Below, in pieces: positions 1 to 32,983 of a DNA stretch of 64,000 nt (its first letter is position 1; every line of letters begins with the position of its first letter). The position numbers and the translations under genes were made by a program. The DNA lies in contig OX597818.1 of NCBI GenBank assembly GCA_951406725.2, positions 130,386,001-130,450,000 on the forward strand. The letters run 5' to 3'. The notes under the pieces are model-generated. The model worked only from the letters and a program-made list of their open reading frames with translations, ran no database searches and was not told where the DNA came from. This stretch comes from Octopus vulgaris (taxonomy: Eukaryota).

Positions 1-243
1 AAAAAGCTGGTAGTGGTAACAATAATTGTCGGAGCCCTGGGAACAGCGAGTAAAAACCTTGAAAAGTACATGTAACAAACAGGGGCTGCAATAAGGATGG
101 AGCACTTGCAGAAAATATCACTGCTTGGAACCGCTCAAATACTCTGGAAGGTGCTCGAAAAATAAGAGGTGTTACCCTAGTCCACTGGTAGTGAACAGCT
201 GACACCATAGTACATCTCCAGCTGTGCAAAGACAATACTAATA

Positions 244-292
<49 letters not shown>
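1..292 (+). mobile_element. Dong/R4-type non-LTR retrotransposon 3' end with (TAA)n tail (partial)
   Basis: Same sequence as 6680-6985. Confidence 0.75.
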
Positions 293-293
<1 letters not shown>

Positions 294-3200
294 TGAGCAA
301 TCAGTAGATAAACATAAATGATAAATAATATTAAATGTAATGATGGGAGAGGTAAAAAGAGTTTTTCTTTCATTTCTGTTTCTGTTGCTATACTTCTCAG
401 TGACTTGATGTTGTATTTTTTCTTTATCTTTTTCTTGTCCTTTCATAGACTTGATGTCAGTGGTAGCATCCTTCATAGCCTCGTGTGCCTGCAATACAAT
501 CACAACTTCCTCCACTTTACACTGCAACAACTCATGAGAGTCTATTAAAGGTAACAGCACAGCCTCTTCAAGCTCCAACAACATACCAGTGATCTTGCCA
601 GCCTTATCTGGATACATATTATGAATCAGTGGAAAGAGAGTCTCACCAAACACTTGTTTCTGTTCTTGTGGGGCAATTGCTCCTATCATACTGGAGCTAA
701 GCAGTTCTTGTCCTTCAGTAGTCTTGATGTCAGTGGTAGCATCTTTCATAGCCTCATGTGCCTGCAATACAATCACAACTTCCTCCACTTTACCCTGCAA
801 CAACTCATGAGAGTCTATTAAAGGTAACAGCACAGCCTCTTCAAGCTCCAACAACATACCAGTGATCTTGCCAGCCTTATCTGGATACATATTATGAATC
901 AATGGAAAGAGAGTCTCACCAAGCACTTGTTTCTGTTCTTGTGGGGCAATTGCTCCTATCATACTGGAGCCAAGCAGTTTTTGTCCTTTAATATTCTTGA
1001 TGTCAGTGGTAGCATCCGTCATAGCCTCGTGTGCCTGCAATACAATCACAACTTCCTCCACTTTTCCCTGCAACAACTCATGAGAGTCTATTAAAGGTAA
1101 CAGCTCAGCCTCTTCAAGCTCCAACAACATACCAGTGATCTTGCCAGCCTTATCTGGATACATATTATGAATCAATGGAAAGAGAGTCTCACCAAGCACT
1201 TGTTTCTGTTCTTGTGGGGCAATTGCTCCTATCATACTGGAGCTAAGCAGTTTTTGTCCTTTAATATTCTTGATGTCAGTGGTAGCATCCGTCATAGCCT
1301 CATGTGCCTGCAATACAATCACAACTTCCTCCAATTTTCCCTGCAACAACTCATGAGAGTCTATTAAAGGTAACAGCTCAGCCTCTTCAAGCTCCAACAA
1401 CATACCAGTGATCTTGCCAGCCTTATCTGGATACATATTATGAATCAATGGAAAGAGAGTCTCACCGAGCACTTGTTTCTGTTCTTGTGGGGCAATTGCT
1501 CCTATCATACTGGAGCTAAGCAGTTCTTGTCCTTCAGTAATCTTGATGTCAGTGGTAGCATCTTTCATAGCCTCATGTGCCTGCAATACAATCACAACTT
1601 CCTCCAATTTTCCCTGCAACAACTCATGAGAGTCTATTAAAGGTAATAGCTCAGCCTCTTCAAGCTCCAACAACATACCAGTGATCTTGCGAGCCTTATC
1701 TGGATACATATTATGAATCAATGGAAAGAGAGACTCACCAAGCACTTGTTTCTGTTCTTGTGGGGCAATTGCTCCTATCATACTGGAGCTAAGCAGTTCT
1801 TGTCCTTCAGTAGTCTTGATGTCAGTGGTAGCATCCTTCATAGCCTCATGTGCCTGCAATACAATCACAACTTCCTCCACTTTTCTCTGCAACAACTCAT
1901 GAGAGTCTATTAAAGGTAACAGCTCAGCCTCTTCAAGCTCCAACAACATACCAGTGATCTCACCAGCCTTATCTGGATACATATTATGAATCAATGGAAA
2001 GAGAGTCTCACCAAGCACTTGTTTCTGTTCTTGTGGGGCAATTGCTCCTATCATACTGGAGCTAAGCAGTTCTTGTCCTTCAGTAGTCTTGATGTCAGTG
2101 GTAGCATCCTTCATAGCCTCATGTGCCTGCAATACAATCACAACTTCTTCTACTTTTCCCTGCAACAACTCATGAGAGTCTATTAAAGGTAACAGCTCAG
2201 CCTCTTCAAGCTCCAACAACATACCAGTGATCTCACCAGCCTTATCTGGATACATACCATGAACCAATGGAAAGAGAGTCTCACCAAGCATTTGTTTCTG
2301 TTCTTGTGGGGCAATTGCTCCTATCATACTGGAGCTAAGAGGTTCTTGTCCTTTAATAGTCGTGATGTCAGTGGTAGCATCCTTCATAGCCTCATGTGCC
2401 TGCAATACAATCACAACTTCCTCCACTTTTCCCTGCAACAACTCATGAGAGTCTATTAAAGGTAATAGCTCAGCTTTGTCAAGCTCCAACAACATACCAG
2501 TGATTTTGCCAGCCTTATCTGGATACATATTATGAATCAATGGAAAGAGTGTCTCACCAAGCACTTGTTTCTGTTCTTGTGGGTCACTTGCTCCCATCAT
2601 ACTGGAGCTAAGAGGTTCTTGTCCTTCAGTAGTCTTGATGTCAGTGGTAGCATCTTTCATAGCCTCATGTGCCTGCAACACAATCACAACTTCCTCCACT
2701 TTTCCCTGCAACAACTCATGAGAGTCTATTAAAGGTAACAGCTCAGCCTCTTCAAGCTCCAACAACATACCAGTGATCTCACCAGCCTTATCTGGATACA
2801 TACCATGAATCAATGGAAAGAGAGTCTCACCAAGCACTTGTTTCTGTTCTTGTGGGGCAATTGCTCCTATCATACTGGAGCTAAGCAGTTTTTGTCCTTC
2901 AGTAGTCTTGATGTCAGTGGTAGCATTCTTCATAGCCTCATGTGCCTGCAACACAATCACAACTTCCTCCACTTTTCCCTGCAACAACTCATGAGAGTCT
3001 ATTAAAGGTAATAGCTCAGCCTCTTCAAGCTCCAACAACATACCAGTGATCTTGCTAGCCTTATCTGGATACATATTATGAATCAATGGAAAGAGAGTCT
3101 CACCAAGCACTTGTTTCTGTTCTTGTGGGGCAATTGCTCCTATCATACTGGAGCTAAGCAGTTTTTGTCCTTCAGTAGTCTTGATGTCAGTGGTAGCATT

Positions 3201-3605
3201 CTTCATAGCCTCATGTGCCTGCAACACAATCACAACTTCCTCCACTTTTCCCTGCAACAACTCATGAGAGTCTATTAAAGGTAATAGCTCAGCCTCTTCA
3301 AGCTCCAACAACATACCAGTGATCTTGCCAGCCTTATCTGGATACATATTATGAATCAATGGAAAGAGAGTCTCACCAAGCTTTTTTTTCTTTTCTTGAA
3401 GTGGTACTGCTGTTTTGATACTGGAGGAAAAATTATTGTTTTCATGGATGATCACCACTGCTTGCTGATTATTAGGTTGATCTAGCATCGACTGCATTGT
3501 ACCCATAGGTCTGAAAGGTCTTATTGATCCGAATTTAAAGTTAAATCTGGTATTCTCTGACTGCATTTTATTCATTTCTCTTGTGGTAAAAGGAGAGAAA
3601 GCCAT
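177..3605 (-). CDS. Poly-MLLE (PABC) protein, copy 1: 11 tandem MLLE domains, no RRMs, poly-Leu C-terminal tail
   Basis: 1142-aa intronless ORF. The 91-aa repeat contains [15 protein letters not shown]...[10 protein letters not shown]...[12 protein letters not shown], which matches the PABPC1 C-terminal MLLE domain ([15 protein letters not shown]...[10 protein letters not shown]...KVDEAVAVLQAH). DNA period is 273 bp (621, 894 ... 3351). Confidence 0.85.
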
Positions 3606-3893
3606 TGTTTGTCCTCTTTGTGCAGTGATGGGTCAAGAACCATGGTTGATGGAAACTGTACAATGAGATCCTGTTTGATTAGCTGGTCTCATCTACTGTG
3701 TGAGCAAAGGCTGGTACATAGTGTCCTGCTGGGTTGGGGTTGGCCTAACAGTTGTCCAGCAATGAGGACCCAAGGCCATAAACTGTATTAGCAGAGAGGA
3801 ATAGAATACTTTTCTTGAAACTTGGCTGGTATGAAGCAAAGGGTTAGGTTGCTGGCCTGGAAAATGGTATTGAATTAACTAAGTGGGCTTCTA
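3606..3893 (-). pseudogene. Decayed PABPC linker-coding sequence upstream of the ATG (also upstream of copies 2-4, partial in copy 5)
   Basis: Manual translation in the gene's frame gives QYHFPGQQPNP...RKVFYSS...GPHCWTTVRP...Q*MRP...[14 protein letters not shown], with stops at 3693-3695 and 3633-3635. EAHLVN precedes it after a 1-nt shift. These resemble the PABPC motifs AHLxNQY, PRW..VRP and GARPITGQ. Confidence 0.65.
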
Positions 3894-4178
3894 ATAATGT
3901 GTGTTCTCTTGAATATATTTCTAGATTATGTGGTATCAAGTAACCTACATGAGGAAATTTTAAGCAGAACAGTTGTCAGCAACAATCTAGGTGCTACTAC
4001 CAGTTATCAACACTGCAACAATTGTATCTGACACACATGTTTCCTAAGTCAGTCATAATAATAGAAGTAGTGATAACAATATTATCAGTAGTATTGAAGC
4101 GAATGACCACAATGATAATTCTAGTAGCACTCATACTGACAATAATGATAATAATCATATATGCAGGACCAGATTTAA

Positions 4179-4869
4179 CCCTTTCGTTACTATATTTCTG
4201 ACCAAAATACACCCCTCATGAGTTTCAATTAAATTCTAAAATAATCATGAATCTAGGCTTGTTTCATTAAATAACTGTAACTTTTTTACTTATCAACATT
4301 TTAATGTGATATTTGGAACACAATTAAAGAAAGGGTTCTTAATCAATTCTATTGCATAACTTTTGTCTCAAAGTGACTTTAATTACAGGTAAATCCAGGT
4401 AAATTGAGCAAAAGCTAAAAATATTAAAATTTTAAATTGAGCAAATCGTAAAAAATTAAATTTTGTTTAAACATCACTATAGAAAATGAATCATCAGCTA
4501 ATATTCAAATGGGTATGCAACAAAATTTTGATAAAGAAGAATTGTGCACATCACTATATCATCAGTTGAATTTAATCCACAACAGGTGTACCATAAAGGT
4601 GGAATAAAGTGAAATACTAGAATCCACCGTAAGTTTGACCGAACTAAAGAAATCGGTCAAAAAAATTATATACGGCCCTGGTTATGGTATGGAAGTAATA
4701 AATTCCAGACCACATCGTTCCCTAGGCCATGCTGACTAACATTTTCCCTGTATAAAAACTAAATCCACGCAGTACCCAGTAATTTGCTTGACAAATTTTC
4801 CGAAATTTGATCCCTGATTTTGTGCTTGTTTACGTTCTGCGTAAGTTTGTTTCTGCATTGATCGCTTCA
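4179..4869. mobile_element. Left part of a piggyBac-like MITE (copies at 13407-14098, 20413-21104, 28732-29422)
   Basis: TTAA (4175-4178) is followed by CCCTTTCGTTACTA. The reverse complement of this end occurs at 34427-34440. Confidence 0.75.
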
Positions 4870-4959
4870 TTTTGGTCCCACTGTTGTAAAGAACGTTTTT
4901 ATTATTGTACAGAATCCACTTTACAGAATTGATTTAGAGATCATATTTAAAATACAAAA

Positions 4960-5345
4960 AGGTGTTCCTTATGGAATTGGAACATTTCATCTAAAGTTCA
5001 TCCGATTTGTTAATAATTTTACTTGAACATTTAAAAAGTTTCAATTATTCCATGCAGCAGAGGTTACACAATTATCAGTTGTTAAAGTAAGGCTTAGCAT
5101 GTTTCACAATACTCCAGGTAATATGGAAGACAACATTATTATCCTTTAACTCCCAGATTTTTGCAGCAAGTGAAGTAGTTTTAACCTTATTCCTTCCTTT
5201 AAAGGTGTGAGTGTTGTTATGTGATCTCAGTTTGAAGGGGAAGGAGGTAGAACCTATACAGGTTAAAGTATTCTGGTTAGTGTAAATCATACATTTGTAA
5301 ATAATACTTTTAGCTAGGCCCCTATTATTAAGAGGGCACTAAAAT
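4960..5345 (-). mobile_element. Penelope-like element GIY-YIG endonuclease relic (copies ~14190-14570, ~21195-21575, ~29513-29893)
   Basis: Translation CPLNN...SIIYKC...CIGST..FKLR...LAAKIWELK...ITWSIVK..KPY...LCNLC matches the PLE GIY-YIG pattern and contains stops. Confidence 0.7.
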
Positions 5346-5597
5346 TTATTTCTACAATTACATAGTTTTGATGGCAGAGTAGTAGGGCTATTACAAGTAC
5401 AGGTAATTGGGTTATTATGTTGCAGATAGTTAGCATCACTAGAATTACTATTGTTGTTAAGCCTACCAATTCTACAAGCACCATTGAATAAATATAACTG
5501 TTATCATTAGTATAGTTGCTGTAATTGTTATTATTTATATAAGAATCACTGTGGTCACTATCAATAGTATTACCATCAGCATTACAAATATGAGAAC

Positions 5598-5633
<36 letters not shown>

Positions 5634-5867
5634 CATTATTATTATTATTATTAGTGGTATTGGAGCTAATAAAATGTCATTGTTGTCTTTTGCATGAATA
5701 CTATTGATAATATTGTTACCAGTACATCAGTATAATTAGTATAAAATTAAACTTTCAATTTTAGTTTCAATACAACTATACTTATTAAGAGGAAAATATT
5801 TTTGTGAAATACTAAAAATTTTCTTGGCAAGTTGCATAACAATATAGTAGTCATAATGTTACTACTA

Positions 5868-6240
5868 CATCATCATCATCATCATCATTTAAGGTCTGTT
5901 TTCCATGCAGGCGTGGGATGGACATTTTGACCAGGGCTAGCAAGCTATGGGCTGCACCAGGCTCCAGTCTGATTTGGCATGTTTTCTATGGCTGATTCCC
6001 TTCCTAATACCAACCACTCTGAGATTGTAACGGGTGCTTTTACGTGCTACTAGCATGGGTGCCAGTCACCTGACACCAGTATCTGCCATGACAATGATTT
6101 CCCTTGGCTTGATGGGTCTTCTTCTCAAGCACCGTATATTGCTAAAGGTCTCAGTCATTTGTCATTGCCCCCATGAAGCCCAGCACTCGAAAGGTGATTT
6201 TTACACACCACCTGCACAGGTGCCAGTTATGTGACACCAG
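5868..6240 (-). mobile_element. RTE-type 3'-UTR fragment with (GAT)n tail (copies ~15091-15463, ~24797-25169, ~30437-30809)
   Basis: (CAT)n is followed by sequence shared with the RTE 3' end at 46463-46995 and 49090-49212. Confidence 0.6.
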
Positions 6241-6244
6241 CATA

Positions 6245-6930
6245 AAACTACCTAAAATACAGAGTAGATAAAACACCAGAAAGTGATAAGTGCAGAATCT
6301 GTGGACAAAATGGTGAAACCTTATGCATATTACCAGCCAATATAAGCCATTAGTCTCAGAAGAATATAAGAGATGCCATGACAATATAGTAAGGCTTGTC
6401 CATTGGACACTTTGCAACAAGTATGGACTTGACAGAGAAAAAAATTAGTATGTCCATAATCCCGAAGGCATCATCGAAAATGATAATGCAAAGATCCTGT
6501 GGGATTTTATGATTCAGTGCAACCAAAAGATAGAGAATAGGAAGCCAGACATATAAGCAAACTATGCTGGATCATAGATATAGCATGCCCAGCTGACAAC
6601 AAGGTATGCAATAAGGAAGAAAGAAAAGTCAATAGATATGACGGGTTAGCTTGGGAGTTAAAGCAATTGTGATCAATGAAAAAGCTGGTAGTGGTAACAA
6701 TAAATGTCGGAGCCCTAGAAACAGCGAGTAAAAACCTTGAAAAGTACATGGAACAAATAGGGGCTGCAATAAGGATGGAGCACTTGTAGAAAATAGCACT
6801 GCTTGGAACCGCTCAAATACTCTAAAAGGTGCTCGAAAAATAAGAGGTGTTACCCTAGTCCACTGGTAGTGAACAGCTGACACCATAGTACATCTCCAGC
6901 ATTAAAAGCTGTGCAAAGGCAATAATAATA

Positions 6931-6971
<41 letters not shown>

Positions 6972-6985
6972 TAACAATAATAATG
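6245..6985 (+). mobile_element. Dong/R4-clade retrotransposon 3' relic: CCHC finger, REL endonuclease, (TAA)n tail (copies ~15468-16225, ~25174-25910, ~30814-31555)
   Basis: Broken translation KCRICGQNGETL.HI...YKRCHDNIVRLVHW...KILWDF...RKPDI...IIDIACP...VGAL...ALLGTAQIL, ending in a TAA microsatellite. Confidence 0.8.
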
Positions 6986-7278
6986 AAAATAGTAACAATG
7001 AGAAATCAGTAGATAAACATAAATGATAAATAATATTAAATGTAATGATGGGAGAGGTAAAAAGAGTTTTTGTTTCGTTTCTTTTTCTGTTGCTATACTT
7101 CTCTGTGACTTGATGTTGTATTTTTTCTTTATCTTTTTCTAGATTTGTTCTCTTCAGTCTTTCTTAATGACCCCTAGCCTTGATGGTAGCAGCTTCCTGA
7201 CCCCGATATTCCCGCAATACAACCATAGCTTCTTTGACTTTAGCCTGCAACAACTCTTGATGTCAGTGATAGCATCTT

Positions 7279-10200
7279 TCAAACCTCGTGCGCCTGCAAC
7301 ACATTCAGAGCTTCCTCGGCTTTAGCCTGCAACAACTCATGAGAGTCTATTAAATGTAACAGCTCAGACGTGTCAAGCTCCAACAACATACCAGTGATCT
7401 TGCCAGCCTTATCTGGATACATATTATGAATCAATGGAAAGAGAGTCTCACCAAGCATTTGTTTCTGTTCTTGTGGGTCAATTGCTCCTATCATACTGGA
7501 GCTAAGAGGTTCTTTTCCTTTAATAGTCTTGATGTCAGTGATAGCATCTTTCATAGCCTCGTGCGCCTGCAACACATTCAGAGCTTTCTCGGCTTTAGCC
7601 TGCAACAACTCATGAGAGTCTATTAAATGTAACACCTCAGCCTCTTCAAGCTCCAACAACATACCAGTGATCTTGCGAGCCTTATCTGGATACATGTTAT
7701 GAATCAATGGAAAGAGAATCTCACCAAGCACTTGTTTCTGTTCTTGTGGGTCAATTGCTCCTATCATACTGGAGCTAAGAGGTTCTTTTCCTTTAATAGT
7801 CTTGATGTCAGTGATAGCATCTTTCATAGCCTCGTGCGCCTGCAACACATTCAGAGCTTCCTCGGCTTTAGCCTGCAACAACTCATGAGAGTCTATTAAA
7901 TGTAACAGCTCAGACGTGTCAAGCTCCAACAACATACCAGTGATCTTGCCAGCCTTATCTGGATACATATTATGAATCAATGGAAAGAGAGTCTCACCAA
8001 GCATTTGTTTCTGTTCTTGTGGGTCAATTGCTCCTATCATACTGGAGCTAAGAGGTTCTTTTCCTTTAATAGTCTTGATGTCAGTGATAGCATCTTTCAT
8101 AGCCTCGTGCGCCTGCAACACATTCAGAGCTTCCTCGGCTTTAGCCTGCAACAACTCATGAGAGTCTATTAAAAGTAACACCTCAGCCTCTTCAAGCTCC
8201 AACAACATACCAGTGATCTTGCGAGCCTTATCTGGATACATATTATGAATCAATGGAAAGAGAATCTCACCAAGCACTTGTTTCTGTTCTTGTGGGTCAA
8301 TTGCTCCTATCATACTGGAGCTAAGAGGTTCTTGTCCTTTAATAGTCTTGATGTCAGTGATAGCATCTTTCATAGCCTCGTGCGCCTGCAACACATTCAG
8401 AGCTTCCTCGGCTTTAGCCTGCAACAACTCATGAGAGTCTATTAAATGTAACAGCTCAGACGTGTCAAGCTCGAACAACATACCAGTGATCTTGCGAGCC
8501 TTATCTGGATACATGTTATGAATCAATGGAAAGAGAATCTCACCAAGCACTTGTTTCTGTTCTTGTGGGTCAATTGCTCCTATCATACTGGAGCTAAGAG
8601 GTTCTTGTCCTTTAATAGTCTTGATGTCAGTGGTAGCATTTTTCTTAGCCTCATGTGCCTGCAACACATTCACAGCTTCCTCGGCTTTAGCCTGCAACAA
8701 CTCATGAGAGTCTATTAAATGTAACACCTCAGCCTCTTCAAGCTCCAACAACATACCAGTGATCTTGCGAGCCTTATCTGGATACATATTATGAATCAAT
8801 GGAAAGAGAATCTCACCAAGCACTTGTTTCTGTTCTTGTGGGGGAATTGCTCCAAACATACTGGAGCTAAGCAGTTTTTGTCCTTTAATAGTCTTGATGT
8901 CAGCGGTAGCATCTTTCATAGCCTCATGTGCCTGCAATACAATCACAACTTCCTCCAATTTTCCCTGCAACAACTCATGAGAGTCTATTAAAGGTAACAG
9001 CTCAGCCTCTTCAAGCTCCAACAACATACCAGTGATTTTGCCAGCCTTATCTGGATACATATTATGAATCAATGGAAAGAGAGTCTCACCAAGCATTTGT
9101 TTCTGTTCTTCTGGGTCAATTGCTCCTATCATACTGGAGCTAAGAGGTTCTTTTCCTTTAATAGTCTTGATGTCAGTGATAGCATCTTTCATAGCCTCGT
9201 GCGCCTGCAACACATTCAGAGCTTCCTCGGCTTTAGCCTGCAACAACTCATGAGAGTCTATTAAATGTAACACCTCAGCCTCTTCAAGCTCCAACAACAT
9301 ACCAGTGATCTTGCGAGCCTTATCTGGATACATGTTATGAATCAATGGAAAGAGAATCTCACCAAGCACTTGTTTCTGTTCTTGTGGGTCAATTGCTCCT
9401 ATCATACTGGAGCTAAGAGGTTCTTGTCCTTTAATAGTCTTGATGTCAGTGATAGCATCTTTCATAGCCTCGTGCGCCTGCAACACATTCAGAGCTTCCT
9501 CGGCTTTAGCCTGCAACAACTCATGAGAGTCTATTAAATGTAACACCTCAGCCTCTTCAAGCTCCAACAACATACCAGTGATCTTGCGAGCCTTATCTGG
9601 ATACATATTATGAATCAATGGAAAGAGAATCTCACCAAGCACTTGTTTCTGTTCTTGTGGGTCAATTGCTCCTATCATACTGGAGCTAAGAGGTTCTTGT
9701 CCTTTAATAGTCTTGATGTCAGTGATAGCATCTTTCATAGCCTCGTGCGCCTGCAACACATTCAGAGCTTCCTCGGCTTTAGCCTGCAACAACTCATGAG
9801 AGTCTATTAAATGTAACAGCTCAGACGTGTCAAGCTCCAACAACATACCAGTGATCTTGCCAGCCTTATCTGGATACATATTATGAATCAATGGAAAGAG
9901 AGTCTCACCAAGCATTTGTTTCTGTTCTTGTGGGTCAATTGCTCCTATCATACTGGAGCTAAGAGGTTCTTTTCCTTTAATAGTCTTGATGTCAGTGATA
10001 GCATCTTTCATAGCCTCGTGCGCCTGCAACACATTCAGAGCTTCCTCGGCTTTAGCCTGCAACAACTCATGAGAGTCTATTAAAAGTAACACCTCAGCCT
10101 CTTCAAGCTCCAACAACATACCAGTGATCTTGCGAGCCTTATCTGGATACATATTATGAATCAATGGAAAGAGAATCTCACCAAGCACTTGTTTCTGTTC

Positions 10201-21739: not shown

Positions 21740-24426
21740 AATAATAATAATAATAATTGTGTACAGTGCTCAGGTGCACTACAACTCATCTAAAGTGTAT
21801 ATATAATCAGGTGTAGTTTCGGCGGATTTCGGAAAGCATGAGGGCCTTAAAAGATGCAGTGTCATGGCAGTCAACAACTGACGCAGGCAGTTTATTCCAT
21901 GCTTCAGCAACTCTGAGCGTGAAAAAATGTTTCCGAAAGTCATGGGAGCTGTATTGTTTTCTGACTTTGTAGGCATGTCCACGTGTGTTAGACACATGGA
22001 GATCAAAAAGGTGTTCAGTGTTGTTGTTGGTGAGGTGGTTGATAACTTTGTGGGTGTTTACCAAGTCCGTCGCCAAACGCCGGAGCTTCAGTGAATCCAT
22101 GCCCAGGGAAACAAGGCGCTCAGAATATGGTAGGTGTCTGATGGAGGGTATGCGTTTGGTTGCACGTCTCTGGACAGATTCCAGGAGGTCAATGTTCTGT
22201 GCAAGATAGGGGTTCCAAACTGATGATGCGAATTCCAAGTGTGGTCGTACCATAGCTGTATACAGTTTTAAATAGATGGCTGGAGAGCGGCTAACAAAAG
22301 ACCTGCTGAGTGATGCCAAGACACCCTCGGCCTTCCTGACAATCTTAGAGATATGCTTTGACCAACGCAAATCACTGCTGACAGTGATGCCTAGGTCACG
22401 CTCACAAGAGGATTTCTTGATATCAGTGTTGTGGAGGGAGTATGTGAACGCAGGGTTTTTTCTCCCAAAATGCATGGTGGTACACTTGTCCACAGCCAGT
22501 TTCAGTTGCCAGTCTGTGATCCATTGCTGCATTGTGTCTAGGTCTGATTGCAGGAAAGAGTTGTAGACATCAGGATCTGTCCTCTTGATTTCAAGGTACA
22601 GCTTGATGTCGTCTGCATATTTCAATACTGTGGCATTCCTTAAATTGGCATCTATGTCGTTAATGTATGCCACAAACAAGAGGGGACCAAGGACAGATCC
22701 CTGTGGTACACCCGATGACATCTCATATGGTGTAGAGTGCTGTCCTAGAACTGTGACTACCTCCTTTCGGCTGAGGATGAAGGATTTCAACCAGTTAAAA
22801 AGGTCATCCCCCACACCCATTGCAGAGAGTTTCACCATAAGCCTTTTGTGTGGCACAGAGTTGAAAGCCTTAGCAAAGTCAAGGTAGACAACATCCACCC
22901 ATGAGCCACTGTCAGTAATCTGAGTAATGTCCTCAAGGAACTCGACAAGCTGGTCACTGCAGCTGGAGTTAGGGACAAATCCATATTGTGAGGGTCGGAT
23001 GAGACTGTGAGAGCTCCAGAAGTTCCAGAGTGTTTCTCTGACACACGATTCCATCAGTTTTGCAATACAGCTAGTGAGACTGACTGGGCGATAGTTGACA
23101 GGTGATGTGCGGTCGCCCTTTTTGAACAGAGGAATGACACTGGCAGTTTTCCACTGCTCCGGAGTAGCACCATTGTTGAGACAGTACTGGAAGAAAATAG
23201 AAAGCTGGTGTAAAAGGAAGTGCCTGCCACGTTTGAGAAGCAGGTATGTAACTCCATCGAGACCAGAGGAGGCATAGTTGCGCTTATTTTGAAGGTGACG
23301 TCGCAGCATTGCAGGTGTAAATTCCATAGTTGTTATGGAGTTTGCTGTTAGTGATGGTGAAGATGGTACATTTTGACTTTCAACAGTGAATATGTTTGCA
23401 TAGCACTCGGCAATGAGTTCTGCGCATTCCTTGGGGTCGTCAGTGATCTGGTTTGTGTGAGGGTTGCGAAGAGGGCCCACTGGAGAGTGAGGTCTCTGCT
23501 TTGAGTGCACATATTTCCAGAAAACCTTGCTGTCAGGATTGGCTGCTATGCACTGTTCAAATTCAAGCACTGCTTTTTTTGTCACTTGCTTGAGATGGTT
23601 GGAGGATTTATTCCGCTTCTTCCTGTTGGTGTCTGATTTATGCAACCTGTATTCCCGTTCAGCAGTCCGACGTTCCCTCCTGGCAAGTCGGACCGCTGAA
23701 GTTTCCCAAATTGCCCTTTTGGGGCGGTTCTTCTTTTTTTGTTTACGTGGCACTGATGCTGCACATGCTGCCCATATTGAGTCCAGGATACTCTGGAGTA
23801 TAGTATTCACATCTCCAGAGTTGTAGAATTCACGCCAGTTTGGGTGCTGTAGTTCAGTGTGGTACAGGTTCCAATCTGCTCTCTTCCAATCGAAGGAAGC
23901 AGATTGGAGATGGTTCAGGTTTTTGTTGCCCGCAAGAGCCAGATTGGCGATGATCATAGCATGATCAGAGTCACCTAGAGGTTCCTCCGTAGTGCAATTG
24001 ATAACTGCTTCAGGAGTTGTGGTGAAGAGCAGGTCCAAGGTGTTGTCGCCTCTTGTTGGAGAGGTGACTACTTGTGACCAGTTTGAGTCCAGCACAAGCT
24101 CAACAAAATCGTTTGCACTCTGTGGCCAATGGAAGGTCTCCCAATCGATCTCAGGATGGTTGAAATCGCCTGCAATAAACACATAAGTGGCTGTTTTCCT
24201 GGCAGCAGCTCGGAGGACATTGCAAAGCTGTGTGTCCCGATGGTAACTTGGGGGACGATAAACAACGCCAAGCAGGAGTGTTGACATGGTCATACGCACG
24301 TCACAGAAAAAAACTTCTTCTTGTGATTCGTTCAAATCGGCACAAGGAATTACCAAAAAATTTGAACGAACGTAGACCATCACACCACCACCACGGCGGT
24401 TAGTGCGGTCCTTACGGAAGAGGTCC
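21740..24426 (-). mobile_element. 5'-truncated CR1-like LINE inserted in spacer 3
   Basis: Absent from the other three spacers. Has a (TTA)n 3' tail and a candidate TTAT duplication at 21736-21739 and 24427-24430. Confidence 0.92.
21807..24425 (-). CDS. LINE ORF2 (partial AP endonuclease plus reverse transcriptase), lacking its true start
   Basis: Motifs LFRKDR..RRGGGV, GDFN, SDH, YRPVSLTS, YLDFAKAF, GVPQGSVLGPLLF and YADD. The frame is open up to the truncation point. Confidence 0.9.
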   Translation of the reverse strand, partial: DLFRKDRTNRRGGGVMVYVRSNFLVIPCADLNESQEEVFFCDVRMTMSTLLLGVVYRPPSYHRDTQLCNVLRAAARKTATYVFIAGDFNHPEIDWETFHWPQSANDFVELVLDSNWSQVVTSPTRGDNTLDLLFTTTPEAVINCTTEEPLGDSDHAMIIANLALAGNKNLNHLQSASFDWKRADWNLYHTELQHPNWREFYNSGDVNTILQSILDSIWAACAASVPRKQKKKNRPKRAIWETSAVRLARRERRTAEREYRLHKSDTNRKKRNKSSNHLKQVTKKAVLEFEQCIAANPDSKVFWKYVHSKQRPHSPVGPLRNPHTNQITDDPKECAELIAECYANIFTVESQNVPSSPSLTANSITTMEFTPAMLRRHLQNKRNYASSGLDGVTYLLLKRGRHFLLHQLSIFFQYCLNNGATPEQWKTASVIPLFKKGDRTSPVNYRPVSLTSCIAKLMESCVRETLWNFWSSHSLIRPSQYGFVPNSSCSDQLVEFLEDITQITDSGSWVDVVYLDFAKAFNSVPHKRLMVKLSAMGVGDDLFNWLKSFILSRKEVVTVLGQHSTPYEMSSGVPQGSVLGPLLFVAYINDIDANLRNATVLKYADDIKLYLEIKRTDPDVYNSFLQSDLDTMQQWITDWQLKLAVDKCTTMHFGRKNPAFTYSLHNTDIKKSSCERDLGITVSSDLRWSKHISKIVRKAEGVLASLSRSFVSRSPAIYLKLYTAMVRPHLEFASSVWNPYLAQNIDLLESVQRRATKRIPSIRHLPYSERLVSLGMDSLKLRRLATDLVNTHKVINHLTNNNTEHLFDLHVSNTRGHAYKVRKQYSSHDFRKHFFTLRVAEAWNKLPASVVDCHDTASFKALMLSEIRRNYT

Positions 24427-25859
24427 TTATCATTAGTATAGTTGCTGTAATTGTTATTATTTATATAAGAATCACTGTGGTCACTATCAATAGTATTACC
24501 ATCAGCATTACAAATATGAGCACTATTATTATTATTATTATTATTATCATTATTATCATTATTATTATTATTATTATTATTAGTGGTATTGGAGCTAATA
24601 AAATGTCATTGTTGTCTTTTGCATGAATACTATTGATAATATTGTTACCAGTACATCAGTATAATTAGTATAAAATTAAACTTTCAATTTTAGTTTCAAT
24701 ACAACTATACTTATTAAGAGGAAAATATTTTTGTGTAATACTAAAAATTTTCTTGGCAAGTTGCATAACAATATAGTAGTCATAATGTTACTACTACATC
24801 ATCATCATCATCATCATTTAAGGTCTGTTTTCCATGCAGGTGTGGGATGGACATTTTGACCAGGGCTAGCAAGCTATGGGCTGCACCAGGCTCCAGTCTG
24901 ATTTGGCATGTTTTCTATGGCTGATTCCTTTCCTAATACCAACCACTCTGAGATTGTAATGGGTGCTTTTACGTGCTACTAGCATGGGTGCCAGTCACCT
25001 GACACCAGTATCTGCCATGACAATGATTTCCCTTGGCTTGATGGGTCCTCTTCTCAAGCACCGTATATTGCTAAAGGTCTCAGTCATTTGTCATTGCCCC
25101 AATGAAGCCCAGCACTCGAAAGGTGATTTTTACACACCACCTGCACAGGTGCCAGTTATCTGACACCAGCATAAAACTACCTAAAATACAGAGTAGATAA
25201 AACTCCAGAAAGTGATAAGTGCAGAATCTGTGGACAAAATAGTGAAACCTTATGCATATTACCAGCCAATATAAGCCATTAGTCTCAGAAGAATATAAGA
25301 GATGCCATGACAATATAGTAAGGCTTGTCCATTGGACACTTTGCAACAAGTATGGACTTGACAGAGAAAAAAATTAGTATGTCCACAATCCCGAAGGCAT
25401 CATCGAAAATGATAATGCAAAGATCCTGTGGGATTTTATGATTCAGTGCAACCAAGAGATAGAGAATAGGAAGCCAGACATAAAAGCAAACTATGCTGGA
25501 TCATAGATATAGCATGCCTAGCTGACAACAAGGTATGCAATAAGGAAGAAAGAAAAGTCAATAGATATGACGGGTTAGCTTGGGAGTTAAAGCAATTGTG
25601 ATCAATGAAAAAGCTGGTAGTGGTAACAATAATTGTCGGAGCCCTGGGAACAGCGAGTAAAAACCTTGAAAAGTACATGGAACAAATAGGGGCTGCAATA
25701 AGGGTGGACCACTTTCAGAAAACAGCACTGCTTGGAACCGCTCATATACTCTGGAAGGTGCTCGAAAAATAAGAGGTGTCACCCTAGTCCACTGGTAGTG
25801 AACAGCTGACACCATAGTACATCTCCAGCATTAAGAGCTGTGCAAAGGCAATAATAATA

Positions 25860-26085: not shown

Positions 26086-28158
26086 TTAATGACCCCTACC
26101 TTTGATGGTAGCAGCTTCTTGACCCCGATATTCCCACAATACAATCATAGCTTCCTCGACTTTAGCCTGCAACAACTCATGAGAGTCTATCAAAGGTAAC
26201 AGCTCAGCTTTGTCAAGCTCCAACAACATACCTGTGATCTTGCCAGCCACGTATGGATAGATAGCATGAACCAATGGTAAAAGAGTCTCACCAAGCATTT
26301 GTTTCTGTACTTGTGGTGGTACTGCTGCTAACATACTGGAGCTAAGCAGTTCTTGTCTATGATTGGTCTTGATGTCAGTGGTAGCATTTTTCTTAGCCTC
26401 ATGTGCCTGCAACACAATCACAGCTTCCTCCACTTTAGCCTGCAGCGACTCATGAGAGTCTAATGAAATTAACAGCTCAGCCTCTTCAAGCTCCAACAAC
26501 ATACCAGTGATCTTGCCAGCCTTATCTGGATACATGTTATAAATCAATGAAAAGAGAATCTCACCAAGCACTTGTTTCTGTTCTTGTGGGTCAATTGTTC
26601 CTATTGTACTGGAACTAAGAGGTTCTTTTCCTTTAATAGTCTTGATGTCAGTGATAGCATCTTTCATAGCCTCTTGTGCCTGCAACACAATCACAACTTC
26701 CTCCAATTTTCCCTGCAACAACTCATGAGAGTCTATTAAAGGTAATAGCTCAGCCTCTTCAAGCTCCAACAACATACCAGTGATCTTGCCAGCCTTATCT
26801 GGATACATATTATGAATCAATGGAAAGAGAATCTTACTAAGCACTTGTTTCTGTTCTTGTGGGTCACTTGCTCCTATCATACTGGAGCTAAGAGGTTCTT
26901 GTCCTTCAGTAGTCTTGATGTCAGTGGTAGCATCTTTCATAGCCTCTTGTGCCTGCAACACAATCACAACTTCCTCCAATTTTCCCTGCAACAACTCATG
27001 AGAGTCTATTAAAGGTAATAGCTCAGCCTCTTCAAGCTCCAACAACATACCAGTGATCTTGCCAGCCTTATCTGGATACATATTATGAATCAATGGAAAG
27101 AGAATCTTACTAAGCACTTGTTTCTGTTCTTGTGGGTCACTTGCTCCTATCATACTGGAGCTAAGAGGTTCTTGTCCTTCAGTAGTCTTGATGTCAGTGG
27201 TAGCATCTTTCATAGCCTCTTGTGCCTGCAACACAATCACAACTTCCTCCAATTTTCCCTGCAACAACTCATGAGAGTCTATTAAAGGTAATAGCTCAGC
27301 CTCTTCAAGCTCCAACAACATACCAGTGATCTTGCGAGCCTTATCTGGATACATATTATGAATCAATGGAAAGAGAATCTTACTAAGCACTTGTTTCTGT
27401 TCTTGTGGGGCAATTGCTCCTATCATACTGGAGCTAAGAGGTTCTTGTCCTTCAGTAGTCTTGATGTCAGTGGTAGCATCCTTCATAGCCTCATGTGCCT
27501 GCAACACAATCACAACTTCCTCCACTTTTCCCTGCAACAACTCATGAGAGTCTATTAAAGGTAACAGCTCAGCTTCGTCAAGCTCCAACAACATACCAGT
27601 GATCTCACCAGCCTTATCTGGATACATGTTATGAATCAATGGAAAGAGAGTCTCACCAAGCACTTGTTTCTGTTCTTGTGGGTCACTTGCTCCTATCATA
27701 CTGGAGCTAAGAGGTTCTTTTCCTTTAATAGTCTTGATGTCAGTGATAGCATCTTTCATAGCCTCTTGTGCCTGCAACACAATCACAACTTCCTCCACTT
27801 TTCCCTGCAACAACTCATGAGAGTCTATTAAAGGTAATAGCTCAGCTTCGTCAAGCTCCAACAACATACCAGTGATCTTGCCAGCCTTATCTGGATACAT
27901 ACCATGAACCAATGGAAAGAGATTCTCACCAAGCTTTTTTTTGTTTTCTTGAAGTGGTACTGCTGTTCTGATAGTGGAGGAAAAATTATTGTTTTCATGG
28001 ATGATCACCACTGCTTGCTGATTATTAGGTTGATCTAGCATCGACTGCATTGTACCCATAGGTCTGAAAGGTCTTATTGGTCCGAATTTAAAGTTAAATC
28101 TGGTATTCTCTGACTGCATTTTATTCATTTCTCTTGTGGTAAAAGGAGAGAAAGCCAT
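26086..28158 (-). CDS. Poly-MLLE protein, copy 4: 7 MLLE units
   Basis: Intact 690-aa ORF from ATG to TAA, with KITGMLLE repeated every 91 aa. Confidence 0.85.
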   Translation of the reverse strand: MAFSPFTTREMNKMQSENTRFNFKFGPIRPFRPMGTMQSMLDQPNNQQAVVIIHENNNFSSTIRTAVPLQENKKKLGENLFPLVHGMYPDKAGKITGMLLELDEAELLPLIDSHELLQGKVEEVVIVLQAQEAMKDAITDIKTIKGKEPLSSSMIGASDPQEQKQVLGETLFPLIHNMYPDKAGEITGMLLELDEAELLPLIDSHELLQGKVEEVVIVLQAHEAMKDATTDIKTTEGQEPLSSSMIGAIAPQEQKQVLSKILFPLIHNMYPDKARKITGMLLELEEAELLPLIDSHELLQGKLEEVVIVLQAQEAMKDATTDIKTTEGQEPLSSSMIGASDPQEQKQVLSKILFPLIHNMYPDKAGKITGMLLELEEAELLPLIDSHELLQGKLEEVVIVLQAQEAMKDATTDIKTTEGQEPLSSSMIGASDPQEQKQVLSKILFPLIHNMYPDKAGKITGMLLELEEAELLPLIDSHELLQGKLEEVVIVLQAQEAMKDAITDIKTIKGKEPLSSSTIGTIDPQEQKQVLGEILFSLIYNMYPDKAGKITGMLLELEEAELLISLDSHESLQAKVEEAVIVLQAHEAKKNATTDIKTNHRQELLSSSMLAAVPPQVQKQMLGETLLPLVHAIYPYVAGKITGMLLELDKAELLPLIDSHELLQAKVEEAMIVLWEYRGQEAATIKGRGH

Positions 28159-30150
28159 TGTTTGTCCTCTTTGTGCAGTGATGGGTCAAGAACCATGGTT
28201 GATGGAAACTGTACAATGAGATCCTGTTTAATTAGCTGGTCTCATCTACTGTGTGAGCAAAGGCTGGTACATAGTATCCTGCTGGGTTGAGGTTGGCCTA
28301 AAAGTTGTTCAGCAATGAGGCCCCAAGGCCCGAAACTGTATTAGCAGAGAGGATTAGAATACTTTTCTTGAAACTTGGCTGGTATGAAGCAAAGGGTTAG
28401 GTTGCTGGCCTGGAAGATGGTATTGAATTAACTAAGTGGGCTTCTAATAATGTGTGTTCTCTTGAATATATCTCTAGATTATGTGGTATCAAGTAACCTA
28501 CATGAGGAAATTTTAAGCAGAACAGTTGTCAGCAACAATCTAGGTGCTACTACCAGTTATCAACACTGCAACAATGGTATCTGACACACATGTTTCATAA
28601 GTCAGTCATAATAATAGAAGTAGTGATAACAATATTATCAGTAGTATTCAAGCGAATGACCACAATGATAATTCTAGTAGCACCCATACTGACAATAATG
28701 ATAATAATCATATATGCAGGACCAGATTTAACCCTTTCGTTACTATATTTCTGACCAAAATACACCCCTCATGAGTTTCAATTAAATTCTAAAATAATCA
28801 TGAATCTAGGCTTGTTTCATTAAATAACTGTAACTTTTTTACTTATCAACATTTTAATGTGATATTTGGAACATAATTAAAGAAAGGGTTCTTAATCAAT
28901 TCTATTGCATAACTTTTGTCTCAAAGTGATTTTAATTATAGGTAAATCCAGGTAAATTGAGCAAAAGGTAAAAATATTAAAATTTTAAATTGAGCAAATC
29001 GTAAAAATTAAAATTTTGTTTAAACATCACCATAGAAAATGAATCATCAGCTAATATTCAAATGGGTATGCAACAAAATGTTGATAAAGAAGAATTGTGC
29101 ATATCACTATATCATCAGTTGAATTTAATCCACAACAGGTGTACCATAAAGGTGGAATAAAGTGAAATACTAGAATCCACCGTAAGTTTGACCGAACTAA
29201 AGAAATTGGTCAAAAAAATAATATACGGCCCTGGTTATGGTATGGAAGTGATAAATTCCAGACCACATCGTTCCCTAGGACATGCTGACTAACATTTTCC
29301 CTGTATAAAAACTAAATCCACGCAGTACCCAGTAATTTACTTGACAAATTTTCCGAAATTTGATCCCTGATTTTGTGCTTGTTTACGTTCTGCGTAAGTT
29401 TGTTTCTGCATTGATCGCTTCATTTTGGTCCCACTGTTGTAAAGAACGTTTTTATTATTGTACAGAATCCACTTTACAGAATTGATTTAGAGATCATATT
29501 TAAAATACAAAAAGGTGTTCCTTATGGAATTGGAACATTTCATCTAAAGTTCATCCGATTTGTTAATAATTTTACTTGAACATTTAAAAAGTTTCAATTA
29601 TTCCATGCAGCAGAGGTTACACAATTATCAGTTGTTAAAGTAAGGCTTAGCATGTTTCACAATACTCCAGGTAATATGGAAGACAACATTATTATCCTTT
29701 AACTCCCAGATTTTTGCAGCAAGTGAAGTAGTTTTAACCTTATTCCTTCTTTTAAAGGTGTGAGTGTTGTTATGTGATCTCAGTTTGAAGGGGAAGGAGG
29801 TAGAACCTATACAGGTTAAAGTATTCTGGTTAGTGTAAATCATACATTTGTAAATAATACTTTTAGCTAGGCCCCTATTATTAAGAGGGCACTAAAATTT
29901 ATTTCTACAATTACATAGTTTTGATGGCAGAGTAGTAGGGCTATTACAAGTACAGGTAATTGGGTTATTATGTTGCAGATAGTTAGCATCACTAGAATTA
30001 CTATTGTTGTTAAGCCTACCAATTCTACAAGCACCATTGAATAAATATAACTGTTATCATTAGTATAGTTGCTGTAATTGTTATTATTTATATAAGAATC
30101 ACTGTGGTCACTATCAATAGTATTACCATCAGCATTACAAATATGAGCAC

Positions 30151-30198
<48 letters not shown>

Positions 30199-31499
30199 CA
30201 TTATTATCATTATTATTATTAGTGGTATTGGAGCTAATAAAATGTCATTGTTGTCTTTTGCATGAATACTATTGATAATATTGTTACCAGTACATCAGTA
30301 TAATTAGTATAAAATTAAACTTTCAATTTCAGGTTCAATACAACTATACTTATTAAGAGGAAAATATTTTTGTGAAATACTAAAAATTTTCTTGGCAAGT
30401 TGCATAACAAAATTGTAGCCATCATGTTACTACTACTACATCATCATCATCATCATTTAAGGTCTGTTTTCCATGCAGGTGTGGGATGGACATTTTGACC
30501 AGGTCTAGCAAGCTGATGGGCTGCACCAGGCTCCAGTCTGATTTGGCATGTTTTCTATGGCTGATTCCCTTCCTAATACCAACCACTCTGAGATTGTAAC
30601 GGGTGCTTTTACGTGCAACTGACATGGGTGCCAGTCACCTGATACCAGTATCTGCCATGACAATGATTTCCCTTTGCTTGATGGGTCTTCTTCTCAAGCA
30701 CCGTATATTGCTAAAGGTCTCAGTCATTTGTCATTGCCCCCATGAAGCCCAGCACTCGAAAGGTGCTTTTTACACACCACCTGCACAGGTGCCAGTTATG
30801 TGACACCAGCATAAAACTACCTAAAATACAGAGTAGATAAAACTCCAGAAAGTGATAAGTGCAGAATCTGTGGACAAAATGGTGAAACCTTATGCATATT
30901 ACCAGCCAATATAAGCCATTAGTCTCAGAAGAATATAAGAGATGCCATGACAATATAGTAAGGCTTGTCCATTGGACACTTTGCAACAAGTATGGACTTG
31001 ACAGAGAAAAAAATTAGTATGTCCACAATCCCGAAGGCATCATCGAAAATGATAATGCAAAGATCCTGTGGGATTTTATGATTCAGTGCAACCAAGAGAT
31101 AGAGAATAGGAAGCCAGACATAAAAGCAAACTATGCTGGATCATAGATATAGCATGCCTAGCTGACAACAAGGTATGCAATAAGGAAGAAAGAAAAGTCA
31201 ATAGATATGACGGGTTAGCTTGGGAGTTAAAGCAATTGTGATCAATGAAAAAGCTGGTAGTGGTAACAATAATTGTCGGAGCCCTGGGAACAGCGAGTAA
31301 AAACCTTGAAAAGTACATGGAACAAATAGGGGCTGCAATAAGGGTGGACCACTTTCAGAAAACAGCACTGCTTGGAACCGCTCATATACTCTGGAAGGTG
31401 CTCGAAAAATAAGAGGTGTCACCCTAGTCCACTGGTAGTGAACAGCTGACACCATAGTACATCTCCAGCATTAAGAGCTGTGCAAAGGCAATAATAATA

Positions 31500-31534
<35 letters not shown>

Positions 31535-31729
31535 CAATAACAATAATAATGATAAAAGTAACAATGAGCAATCAGTAGATAAACATAAATGATAAATAAT
31601 ATTAAATGTAATGATGGGAGAGGTAAAAAGAGTTTTTGTTTCATTTCTTTTTCTGTTGCTATACTTCTCTGTGACTTGATGTTGTATTTTTTCTTTATCT
31701 TTTTCTTGATTTGTTCTCTTCAGTCTTTC

Positions 31730-32983
31730 TTAATGACCCCTAGCTTTGATGGTAGCAGCTTCTTGACCCCGATATTCCCACAATACAATCATAGCTTCCT
31801 CGACTTTAGCCTGCAACAACTCATGAGAGTCTATCAAAGGTAACAGCTCAGCTTTGTCAAGCTCCAACAACATACCTGTGATCTTGCCAGCCACGTATGG
31901 ATAGATAGCATGAACCAATGGTAAAAGAGTCTCACCAAGCATTTGTTTCTGTACTTGTGGTGGTACTGCTGCTAACATACTGGAGCTAAGCAGTTCTTGT
32001 CTATGATTGGTCTTGATGTCAGTGGTAGCATTTTTCTTAGCCTCATGTGCCTGCAACACAATCACAGCTTCCTCCACTTTAGCCTGCAGCGACTCATGAG
32101 AGTCTAATGAAATTAACAGCTCAGCCTCTTCAAGCTCCAACAACATACCAGTGATCTTGCCAGCCTTATCTGGATACATGTTATAAATCAATGAAAAGAG
32201 AATCTCACCAAGCACTTGTTTCTGTTCTTGTGGGTCAATTGTTCCTATTGTACTGGAACTAAGAGGTTCTTTTCCTTTAATAGTCTTGATGTCAGTGATA
32301 GCATCTTTCATAGCCTCTTGTGCCTGCAATACAATCACAACTTCCTCCACTTTTCCCTGCAACAACTTATGAGAGTCTATTAAAGGTAACAGCTCAGCTT
32401 CGTCAAGCTCCAACAACATACCAGTGATCTCGCCAGCCTTATCTGGATACATGTTATGAATCAATGGAAAGAGAGTCTCACCAAGCACTTGTTTCTGTTC
32501 ATGTGGGTCAATTGCTCCTATCATACTGGAGCTAAGAGGTTCTTTTCCTTTAATAGTCTTGATGTCAGTGATAGCATCTTTCATAGCCTCTTGTGCCTGC
32601 AACACAATCACAACTTCCTCCACTTTTCCCTGCAACAACTCATGAGAGTCTATTAAAGGTAACAGCTCAGCTTCGTCAAGCTCCAACAACATACCAGTGA
32701 TCTTGCCAGCCTTATCTGGATACATATTATGAACCAATGGAAAGAGAGTCTCACCAAGCTTTTTTTTCTTTCCTTGAAGTGGTACTGCTGTTCTGATAGT
32801 GGAGGAAAATTTATTGTTTTCATGGATGATCACCACTGCTTGCTGATTATTAGGTTGATCTAGCATCGACTGCATTGTACCCATAGGTCTGAAAGGTCTT
32901 ATTGGTCCGAATTTAAAGTTAAATCTGGTATTCTCTGACTGCATTTTATTCATTTCTCTTGTGGTAAAAAGAGAGAAAGCCAT
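31730..32983 (-). CDS. Poly-MLLE protein, copy 5: 4 MLLE units
   Basis: Intact 417-aa ORF. Its last two units are nearly identical to those of copy 4. Confidence 0.82.

What the first reader, a model, noticed from the sequence alone, without database searches (positions are those of the whole stretch)
177..32983. Tandem family of RRM-less poly-MLLE proteins (54 MLLE domains in 5 genes): candidate multivalent PAM2 sponge or scaffold
Seen: five intronless ORFs made almost entirely of 91-aa MLLE units (11, 20, 12, 7 and 4), with no RRM, and with reading frames preserved across kilobases while flanking TE relics are full of stops. Known: MLLE normally occurs once per protein (PABPC, UBR5/HYD) and binds PAM2 motifs of eRF3, PAIP1/2, Tob, PAN3, ataxin-2, LARP4 and GW182/TNRC6. 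Inference: these proteins cannot bind poly(A) themselves but could titrate or cross-link PAM2 proteins, affecting deadenylation, termination, miRNA silencing or RNP granule formation, or acting as decoys. I know of no described family with this architecture; automated annotation would probably label them 'PABP-like'.
Basis: partly seen in the sequence, partly recalled or inferred. Interest (0 to 1): 0.93.

Follow-up and report, generated by a model that had tools for sequence, protein, structure and literature searches.

The report
Octopus poly-MLLE genes from truncated PABP
An octopus chromosome carries five tandem copies of a cut-down poly(A)-binding-protein gene that lost its RNA-binding half and multiplied its protein-docking domain 4 to 20 times, an undescribed design that may soak up mRNA-regulating proteins, although two copies are damaged and neither expression nor binding is shown.

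Summary
The counts are right: Pfam finds 11, 20, 12, 7 and 4 MLLE domains and no RRM in five minus-strand frames. The genome is Octopus vulgaris. Each gene sits in a 97-98% identical cassette holding a 5'-truncated copy of the intronless PABPC gene on C23 (residue 381 to 3' UTR). A linker Met became the start and a 91-codon unit was amplified. The same unit occurs in O. sinensis (5 MLLE) and O. bimaculoides (3), so it is about 34 My old or more. Selection kept the frame: the copied linker upstream of the start has 5-8 lesions in 102 codons, the translated part none; 110 unit variants include no stop (4.3 expected). But recent amino-acid change is neutral (86:24), only 18 of 53 units keep an intact Phe pocket, gene 2 is frameshifted at both ends and gene 1 lost its terminal unit. 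Expression and PAM2 binding are untested. RRM-less multi-MLLE proteins also occur in corals, amphioxus and snails; three-MLLE Rrm4 is in print. Best reading: a dose-variable, partly degenerate PAM2 competitor (0.45). New variant of a known kind.

The parts
177..3605 (-). Gene 1: 72-aa PABPC-linker leader + 11 MLLE units; terminal unit deleted, frame runs about 70 codons into the ancestral 3' UTR (poly-Leu from an ATT microsatellite)
3606..3919 (-). Disabled PABPC-linker remnant upstream of gene 1 (2 frameshifts, 3 stops in 102 parent codons)
7164..12833 (-). Gene 2: leader ATG at 12833, frameshift in A-run 12611-12617, 20 MLLE units (unit 9 with a 33-nt in-frame deletion), 1-nt loss giving TGA at 7279, remnant of terminal unit 7255-7164
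12834..13146 (-). PABPC-linker remnant upstream of gene 2
16402..19839 (-). Gene 3: GTG at 19839, next ATG at 19809; 12 MLLE units incl. terminal unit; intact frame
19840..20152 (-). Disabled PABPC-linker remnant upstream of gene 3
21743..24427 (-). 5'-truncated LINE (endonuclease + RT, open frame) inserted into one spacer after cassette duplication; empty site in the other spacers
26086..28158 (-). Gene 4: 690 aa, leader + 7 MLLE units; intact
28159..28471 (-). Disabled PABPC-linker remnant upstream of gene 4 (2 frameshifts, 6 stops); 28471 is the 5' end of the PABPC copy (parent CDS nt 1143, residue 381)
31730..32983 (-). Gene 5: 417 aa, leader + 4 MLLE units; intact; closest to O. sinensis LOC115212275
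32984..33679 (-). Upstream of gene 5: shortened linker remnant (to 33095) and partial spacer; end of the cluster
3399..7213 (.). Example of the ~3.8-kb non-array part of the cassette (3' UTR copy, spacer, linker remnant, leader), 97-98% identical to 12627-16451, 19633-21742 + 24427-26136 and 27952-31779

Best explanation
[quoted passage not shown] Shown: the copy starts after RRM4, translation can start at the parent's linker Met484, a 273-bp unit (end of linker + MLLE) was amplified in tandem before O. vulgaris and O. bimaculoides split, and the whole cassette was recently duplicated five times. Shown statistically: the frame has been protected from truncation. Inferred: the gene is expressed and makes beads-on-a-string proteins without an RRM. 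Their intact units bind PAM2 motifs (octopus eRF3-, Paip2- and ataxin-2-like motifs exist) and compete with poly(A)-bound PABPC or cluster its partners, damping deadenylation, termination coupling or granule entry where expressed. Because units are redundant, single amino-acid losses in one unit are nearly free while stops, which delete all downstream units, are purged. Unit and gene number act as a loosely controlled dose.
For: DNA homology to the C23 PABPC from CDS nt 1143 through about 280 nt of 3' UTR at about 75%. Upstream remnant: 2 frameshifts + 3-6 stops per 102 codons; none in leader + unit (163 codons; 8-13 expected, P 3e-4 or less). Syn:nonsyn versus parent 12:57 upstream and 23:27 in a unit (Fisher P 0.001); unit-core omega versus parent 0.17-0.32. 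0 stops among 110 distinct variants in 48 full units, 4.3 expected (P 0.012). Same 91-aa spacing, both unit subtypes and shared derived residues in O. bimaculoides; split dated about 34 Mya (10.1101/2023.05.16.540928, passages). O. sinensis models keep the same start, leader and terminal unit. M584, L585, K606, V613 and L614 are invariant in 53 of 53 units. Single-sequence AlphaFold gives four helical domains at pLDDT about 65-85 with low-confidence linkers. An isolated MLLE fragment binds a PAM2 protein in cell lysates (PMC3018788, passages).
Against: Among units omega is 0.76-1.14. Variant classes match neutral expectation in the core (51 nonsyn vs 49.7 expected), and contacts are not spared (13 variants at 18 positions vs 38 at 41). 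Only 18 of 53 units keep G563, E564, F567, G579, K580, T582 and L586; G563S/E564K (9), G579R (11) and K580E (9) hit residues that PMC2854688 shows contacting PAM2. A610V is in 36 of 53. Two of five genes are damaged. Frameshift scarcity inside arrays is no evidence, since spacers had only 2 non-microsatellite indels per 104 substitutions. The parent's linker is less constrained than its MLLE, which inflates the upstream/unit contrast. No transcript or peptide was demonstrated.
Confidence: 0.45

Rival explanations
1. A once-functional short gene (1-3 MLLE) whose array and cassette numbers now expand by unequal crossing-over with little selection; the big arrays are a by-product and the family is drifting toward pseudogenes.
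For: Neutral recent amino-acid change, pocket erosion in 35 of 53 units, lesions in genes 1 and 2, cassettes only 2-3% apart, unit number 4-20 within one cluster.
Against: No stop among 110 variants (P 0.012); lesions lie only at array ends; start, leader and terminal unit are kept in O. sinensis.
Confidence: 0.28
2. The units have been repurposed: variant pockets (G563S/E564K, G579R, K580E) recognise non-canonical or PAM2-like ligands, as accessory MLLE1/2 of Rrm4 may, making a mixed-specificity scaffold rather than a sponge.
For: The same variants recur in many units and some in O. sinensis (K580E; G563S/E564K-type unit in isoform X2). Rrm4 MLLE1/2 carry Ser/Arg at a conserved pocket Gly and do not bind PAM2 (PMC9249222, passages).
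Against: Recurrence is expected from unit copying alone; no excess of change at contacts; no ligand candidate.
Confidence: 0.15
3. Never functional: a processed pseudogene whose MLLE part became a coding-length minisatellite and stays open by chance and homogenisation.
For: 5'-truncated copy, no expression shown, neutral recent change.
Against: Disabled upstream part versus intact downstream part of the same insertion (P 3e-4 or less), omega 0.17-0.32 versus parent, open tandem frame also in O. bimaculoides.
Confidence: 0.07
4. Assembly artefact inflating unit or gene number.
For: Highly repetitive locus; I could not inspect raw long reads; the A7/A8 difference lies in a homopolymer.
Against: 42 of 48 full units are distinct in DNA; spacers differ by 104 substitutions and one carries a private LINE; contigs of 4 of 4 laid runs (four studies, two organism labels) bridge a penultimate unit into the terminal unit (joint 32009 to 27731); tandem units are in two other species' models.
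Confidence: 0.05

Closest known systems
[quoted passage not shown]
   Same: MLLE sequence (best PDB hits human PABPC1 MLLE, E 7e-25), part of the linker and the 3' UTR are copied from it.
   Different: All four RRMs missing; MLLE repeated 4-20 times; many units altered at PAM2 contacts.
Ustilago maydis Rrm4 tripartite MLLE platform (PMC9249222, passages read)
   Same: Several MLLE domains on flexible linkers, with canonical and pocket-variant domains in one chain.
   Different: Rrm4 has three RRMs and three old, divergent MLLEs; here no RRM, near-identical young repeats, metazoan PABPC origin.
UBR5/HYD E3 ligase
   Same: MLLE outside an RRM protein, used to recruit PAM2 proteins (PMC9249222 introduction).
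   Different: One MLLE inside a HECT enzyme; no catalytic domain here.
Uncharacterised RRM-less multi-MLLE proteins in databases (coral/anemone/amphioxus 4-6x family P0404, P0440, P0319, P0351; acroporid RING + 2-3 MLLE P0010, P0011; Babylonia P0141 7x; Plakobranchus P0007 3x)
   Same: Several MLLE domains, no RRM (Pfam).
   Different: Separate origins: different linkers and spacing, own clades where the tree resolves; at most about 8 domains against 12-20 here.
NBPF/Olduvai-type coding repeat expansions (recalled, no call)
   Same: Two-level amplification: domain repeats within genes and tandem gene copies, lineage-specific and variable.
   Different: Unrelated domain; analogy of evolutionary mode only.

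Membership tests
MLLE (PABC) domain, PF00658 | Profile match above curated cut-off | tested here: met
   54 stretches in five frames; each 68.9-98.7 bits against a 27-bit cut-off
MLLE (PABC) domain, PF00658 | Helical bundle fold per unit | tested here: met
   Single-sequence AlphaFold of gene 5: four helical domains, pLDDT about 65-85, pTM 0.27; modest confidence, no fold search run
MLLE (PABC) domain, PF00658 | Intact PAM2-binding surface (G563, E564, F567, G579, K580, T582, L586) | tested here: inconclusive
   Intact in 18 of 53 units scored, altered in 35; one deleted unit left out (residues from PMC2854688)
MLLE (PABC) domain, PF00658 | Measured binding to PAM2 peptides | not testable with these tools
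   Needs ITC or pull-down
PABPC proteins | Four N-terminal RRMs | tested here: not met
   No RRM family; homology to the parent begins at residue 381
PABPC proteins | Descent from a PABPC gene | tested here: met
   About 75% DNA identity over linker, MLLE and 3' UTR to C23 PABPC
Rrm4-type multi-MLLE proteins | Three RRMs plus three divergent MLLEs, fungal | tested here: not met
   No RRM; units derive from octopus PABPC
Retrocopy (processed gene) | 5' truncation | tested here: met
   Starts at parent CDS nt 1143
Retrocopy (processed gene) | Intron loss, poly(A) remnant, target-site duplication | tested here: inconclusive
   Parent CDS is itself intronless; homology ends in an ATT microsatellite with no poly(A) tail seen; target-site duplication not sought
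Expressed protein-coding gene | mRNA and peptide evidence | tested here: inconclusive
   See Tried and rejected; only computed RefSeq models in two other Octopus species

The most novel reading that the evidence does not exclude
RRM-less poly-MLLE proteins are an unrecognised, repeatedly evolved class of PABP antagonists or scaffolds in animals and other eukaryotes. The octopus cluster is its extreme, young member: an expressed multivalent 'anti-PABP' of up to 12-20 docking sites whose unit and gene number tune PAM2-dependent deadenylation, miRNA silencing, termination or granule assembly in particular octopus cells.
Probability: 0.25. Interest if true: 0.85.

Novelty: new variant of a known kind. 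Interest (0 to 1): 0.58.

Why it matters
MLLE-PAM2 contacts route most poly(A)-tail regulators to mRNA. A paper from 2022 lists only PABPC, UBR5 and fungal Rrm4 as MLLE carriers and calls Rrm4 the first with several (PMC9249222, passages). A natural protein made only of MLLE units would be a built-in competitor of PABP, a mode of regulation so far seen only in overexpression experiments. It would be a direct test of how valence shapes PAM2 networks, in an animal noted for RNA-level regulation. Its repeated origin in corals, amphioxus and molluscs suggests an overlooked class. If it is only drifting, it is still a clear case of gene birth from a truncated copy followed by two-level amplification.

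Tried and rejected
Expression: no RNA holder listed on record (20 of 24 rows hold part of gene 5, 17 of them only guessed to be RNA). I laid 4 of the 24 runs (X1, X2, X7, X18) on 27669-32010. All are contigs. X2 and X7 cover the spacer as well as the coding part (29 and 30 of 30 bins), so they do not separate mRNA from DNA or read-through. X1 covers mainly coding ends at depth about 2, and its 5' stop coincides with a break in the DNA-like run, so it is no transcript boundary. No GT..AG joint was among the joints shown (15 shown, 39 hidden). No deletion at the A-run matching gene 2 was among the 12 indels shown (4 hidden), which does not settle whether A7 is real. Complex prediction of an intact unit (gene 1 unit 9) with the eRF3-like PAM2 region of L044 gave 'no answer' (0.29 against a mark of 0.34). 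The protein tree of 90 rows and 80 columns did not resolve the octopus units into one clade and its bootstrap had not settled; I ran no one-clade test, so origin rests on DNA alignment. A frameshift-deficit test was uninformative. Further copies next to the window: none in 40 kb before and 10 kb after it, only a spacer remnant in L036. P0311 (13 stretches) was dropped as a non-MLLE repeat (no domain). Literature: 'MLLE + tandem + octopus' 0 papers; 'tandem MLLE' 0; the LOC/XP identifiers 0; 'PABP + Octopus + MLLE' 1 bivalve miRNA paper, listing only; one search gave Rrm4 papers (19 of 24 listed); two searches gave no paper on a natural MLLE-only protein in their listings; one search was uninformative (none of 15 listed held MLLE). 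Subscription papers and supplements were not searched, and octopus expression tables in supplements could bear on expression. Earlier scan findings: none. DNA of other octopus species was not obtainable, so cross-species dN/dS could not be computed.
Full report
OBSERVATION. Five minus-strand frames of 1151, 1793, 1154, 699 and 426 codons lie at the stated places, built of a 273-bp tandem unit. Pfam finds 11, 20, 12, 7 and 4 MLLE stretches and no RRM family. A genome-wide search gives 59 MLLE matches, 54 of them here; the others are two intronless PABPC genes (C23, C10), a HECT-gene exon (C3) and two weak hits. The leader DNA has exactly five copies plus one 76% match on C23. The C23 protein clusters with an entry named Octopus vulgaris PABP 4-like.

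CORRECTIONS. Only genes 3, 4 and 5 are whole (23 of 54 domains), and gene 3 must start at its second ATG. Gene 2 has seven A where gene 4 has eight (12611-12617), so its leader is out of frame with the 20 units; this could be a sequencing slip in a homopolymer. It also has a 1-nt loss creating a stop in unit 20 and only a remnant of the terminal unit. Gene 1 lost the terminal unit and reads into the old 3' UTR.

ORIGIN. With arrays masked, the locus is five cassettes whose ~3.8-kb non-array parts are 97-98% identical. Each holds a copy of the C23 PABPC gene starting at CDS nt 1143 (residue 381, after RRM4) and running about 280 nt into the 3' UTR, at about 75% identity. The new start is the parent's Met484. 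The unit joins the end of the MLLE to the end of the linker. A retrocopy is likely from the 5' truncation but unproven, since the parent CDS has no introns and no poly(A) remnant was seen. O. sinensis LOC115212275 (4-5 MLLE, same start, leader and terminal unit) and O. bimaculoides LOC106868392 (3 MLLE, 91-aa spacing) are orthologous. The O. bimaculoides units share derived residues with most of the 53 O. vulgaris units (I588L 53, M577K 50, G572N 45) and include both unit subtypes. These species split about 34 Mya, O. sinensis 2.5 Mya (10.1101/2023.05.16.540928, passages). So the tandem unit is old and the five-fold cassette duplication recent. Contigs from 4 of 4 laid runs bridge a penultimate unit into the terminal unit, and 42 of 48 full units differ in DNA, which argues against an assembly artefact; exact unit numbers are unverified.

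SELECTION, FOR. The insertion carries its own control. The 102 parent codons upstream of the new start have 2 frameshifts and 3-6 stops (three copies scored, sharing ancestry); the 163 codons of leader plus one unit have none, against 8-13 expected (P 3e-4 or less). Total divergence from the parent is alike (about 22%), but syn:nonsyn is 12:57 upstream and 23:27 in a unit (P 0.001). Core omega against the parent is 0.17-0.32; a neutral copy beside a constrained parent would give about 0.5 (inference). The parent linker is less constrained than its MLLE, which weakens this contrast somewhat. Among 48 full units (last units and the deleted unit left out), 110 distinct variants include no stop, 4.3 expected (P 0.012).

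SELECTION, AGAINST. The same 110 variants are 86 nonsynonymous and 24 synonymous, matching neutral expectation (78.8 and 26.9); pairwise omega is 0.76-1.14. Contact positions are not spared (13 variants at 18 positions, 38 at 41). Using contacts from the eRF3-MLLE structures (PMC2854688, passages), 18 of 53 units keep all seven Phe-pocket and backbone residues (6/11, 6/19, 2/12, 2/7, 2/4). 27 carry G563S/E564K, G579R or K580E, and 8 milder changes. M584, L585, K606, V613 and L614 are invariant; I588L is fixed and A610V is in 36. F567, K580 and L585 are the residues mutated together to abolish PAM2 binding in human PABPC1 (PMC11347130, passages). The pattern fits redundancy: a missense change costs one unit, a stop costs all units behind it (inference).

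MECHANISM. Shown: RRM-less chains of MLLE domains; a single-sequence model of gene 5 has four helical domains with unstructured joints. The genome holds eRF3-, Paip2- and ataxin-2-like PAM2 motifs (gene names by motif recall). An MLLE-only fragment of PABPC1 binds TNRC6B, less well than the whole protein (PMC3018788, passages). Inferred: if expressed, the intact third or so of units would compete with poly(A)-bound PABPC for PAM2 proteins or cluster them, with dose set by unit and gene number (0.45). Rivals: a by-product expansion now drifting (0.28); repurposed pockets binding other ligands, as suggested for Rrm4 MLLE1/2 (0.15); never functional (0.07); artefact (0.05). Expression and binding are not shown.

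COMPARISON. It is not a PABPC (no RRM) nor an Rrm4-type protein; it works like, at best, the isolated PABC fragment multiplied. PMC9249222 (passages) names only PABPC1, UBR5 and Rrm4 as MLLE proteins and calls Rrm4 the first with several. Databases hold more: 36 of 260 fetched proteins have 4 or more MLLE by my own profile, 30 outside Octopus and none with an RNP1-like motif (the profile was seeded with some of them, and Pfam confirmed the ones tested). In 1.84 billion representatives, 17 of the best 150 of 4515 hits have 4 or more stretches, one a false repeat; the octopus cluster scores highest and the rest have at most 8. These include a conserved 4-6x family in Pocillopora, Porites, Montipora, Acropora, Actinia and Branchiostoma, acroporid RING-MLLE fusions, and gastropod proteins. 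Where the poorly resolved tree has support, these form their own clades. Some may be gene-model artefacts. No paper on any of them turned up.

VERDICT. A real, at least 34-My-old, PABPC-derived poly-MLLE family with the highest MLLE count found, undescribed in the papers searched, protected from truncation but loosely constrained per unit and partly damaged. New variant of a known kind; interest 0.58, up to 0.85 if expression and dose-dependent PAM2 competition are shown.

Noticed in passing
P0440, P0404, P0034, P0319, P0351: An old, conserved, uncharacterised family of 4-6 divergent MLLE domains with no other Pfam domain in corals (Porites, Pocillopora, Montipora, Acropora), an anemone and amphioxus. 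Several begin MGNS/MGSS/MGNF, resembling an N-myristoylation signal (motif recalled, not tested): possibly a membrane-anchored PAM2 platform analogous to the Rrm4-Upa1 endosome link. May deserve its own study.
   Followed up: partly
P0010, P0011, P0018, P0023 (acroporid corals); P0314: RING finger fused to 2-4 MLLE domains, apparently more than once; could be E3 ligases that recruit PAM2 proteins, echoing UBR5.
   Followed up: partly
P0279 (JGI, unnamed): PHAX RNA-binding domain fused to 4 MLLE domains.
   Followed up: no
L035:4239-5267 (G000:C2): A 342-codon single-exon frame with one Pfam MLLE (E 2e-14 for the protein) and what look like further degenerate MLLE-like segments, no RRM: perhaps an older truncated PABP derivative in the same genome.
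   Followed up: partly
L032:3833-5818 (G000:C10) and L031:3759-5690 (G000:C23): Two full-length PABPC genes, both with intronless coding sequence; the C10 copy is strongly diverged.
   Followed up: no
window 21743-24427: 5'-truncated LINE with an open endonuclease/RT frame, inserted in one spacer only; suggests a recently active family.
   Followed up: partly
window 177-390: Gene 1's read-through tail encodes a run of 14 Leu from an ATT microsatellite, a chance hydrophobic segment that could anchor the protein if translated.
   Followed up: no
window 48508-49082: Degenerate 66-bp tandem repeat (about 8 copies, 74% matches), unrelated to the MLLE cluster.
   Followed up: no
window 3606-3919 and equivalents: In the linker remnant, synonymous divergence from the parent (dS 0.16-0.21) is lower than in the MLLE units (0.4-0.7) although total divergence is alike; unexplained, may be noise or constraint on the parent's linker RNA.
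   Followed up: no
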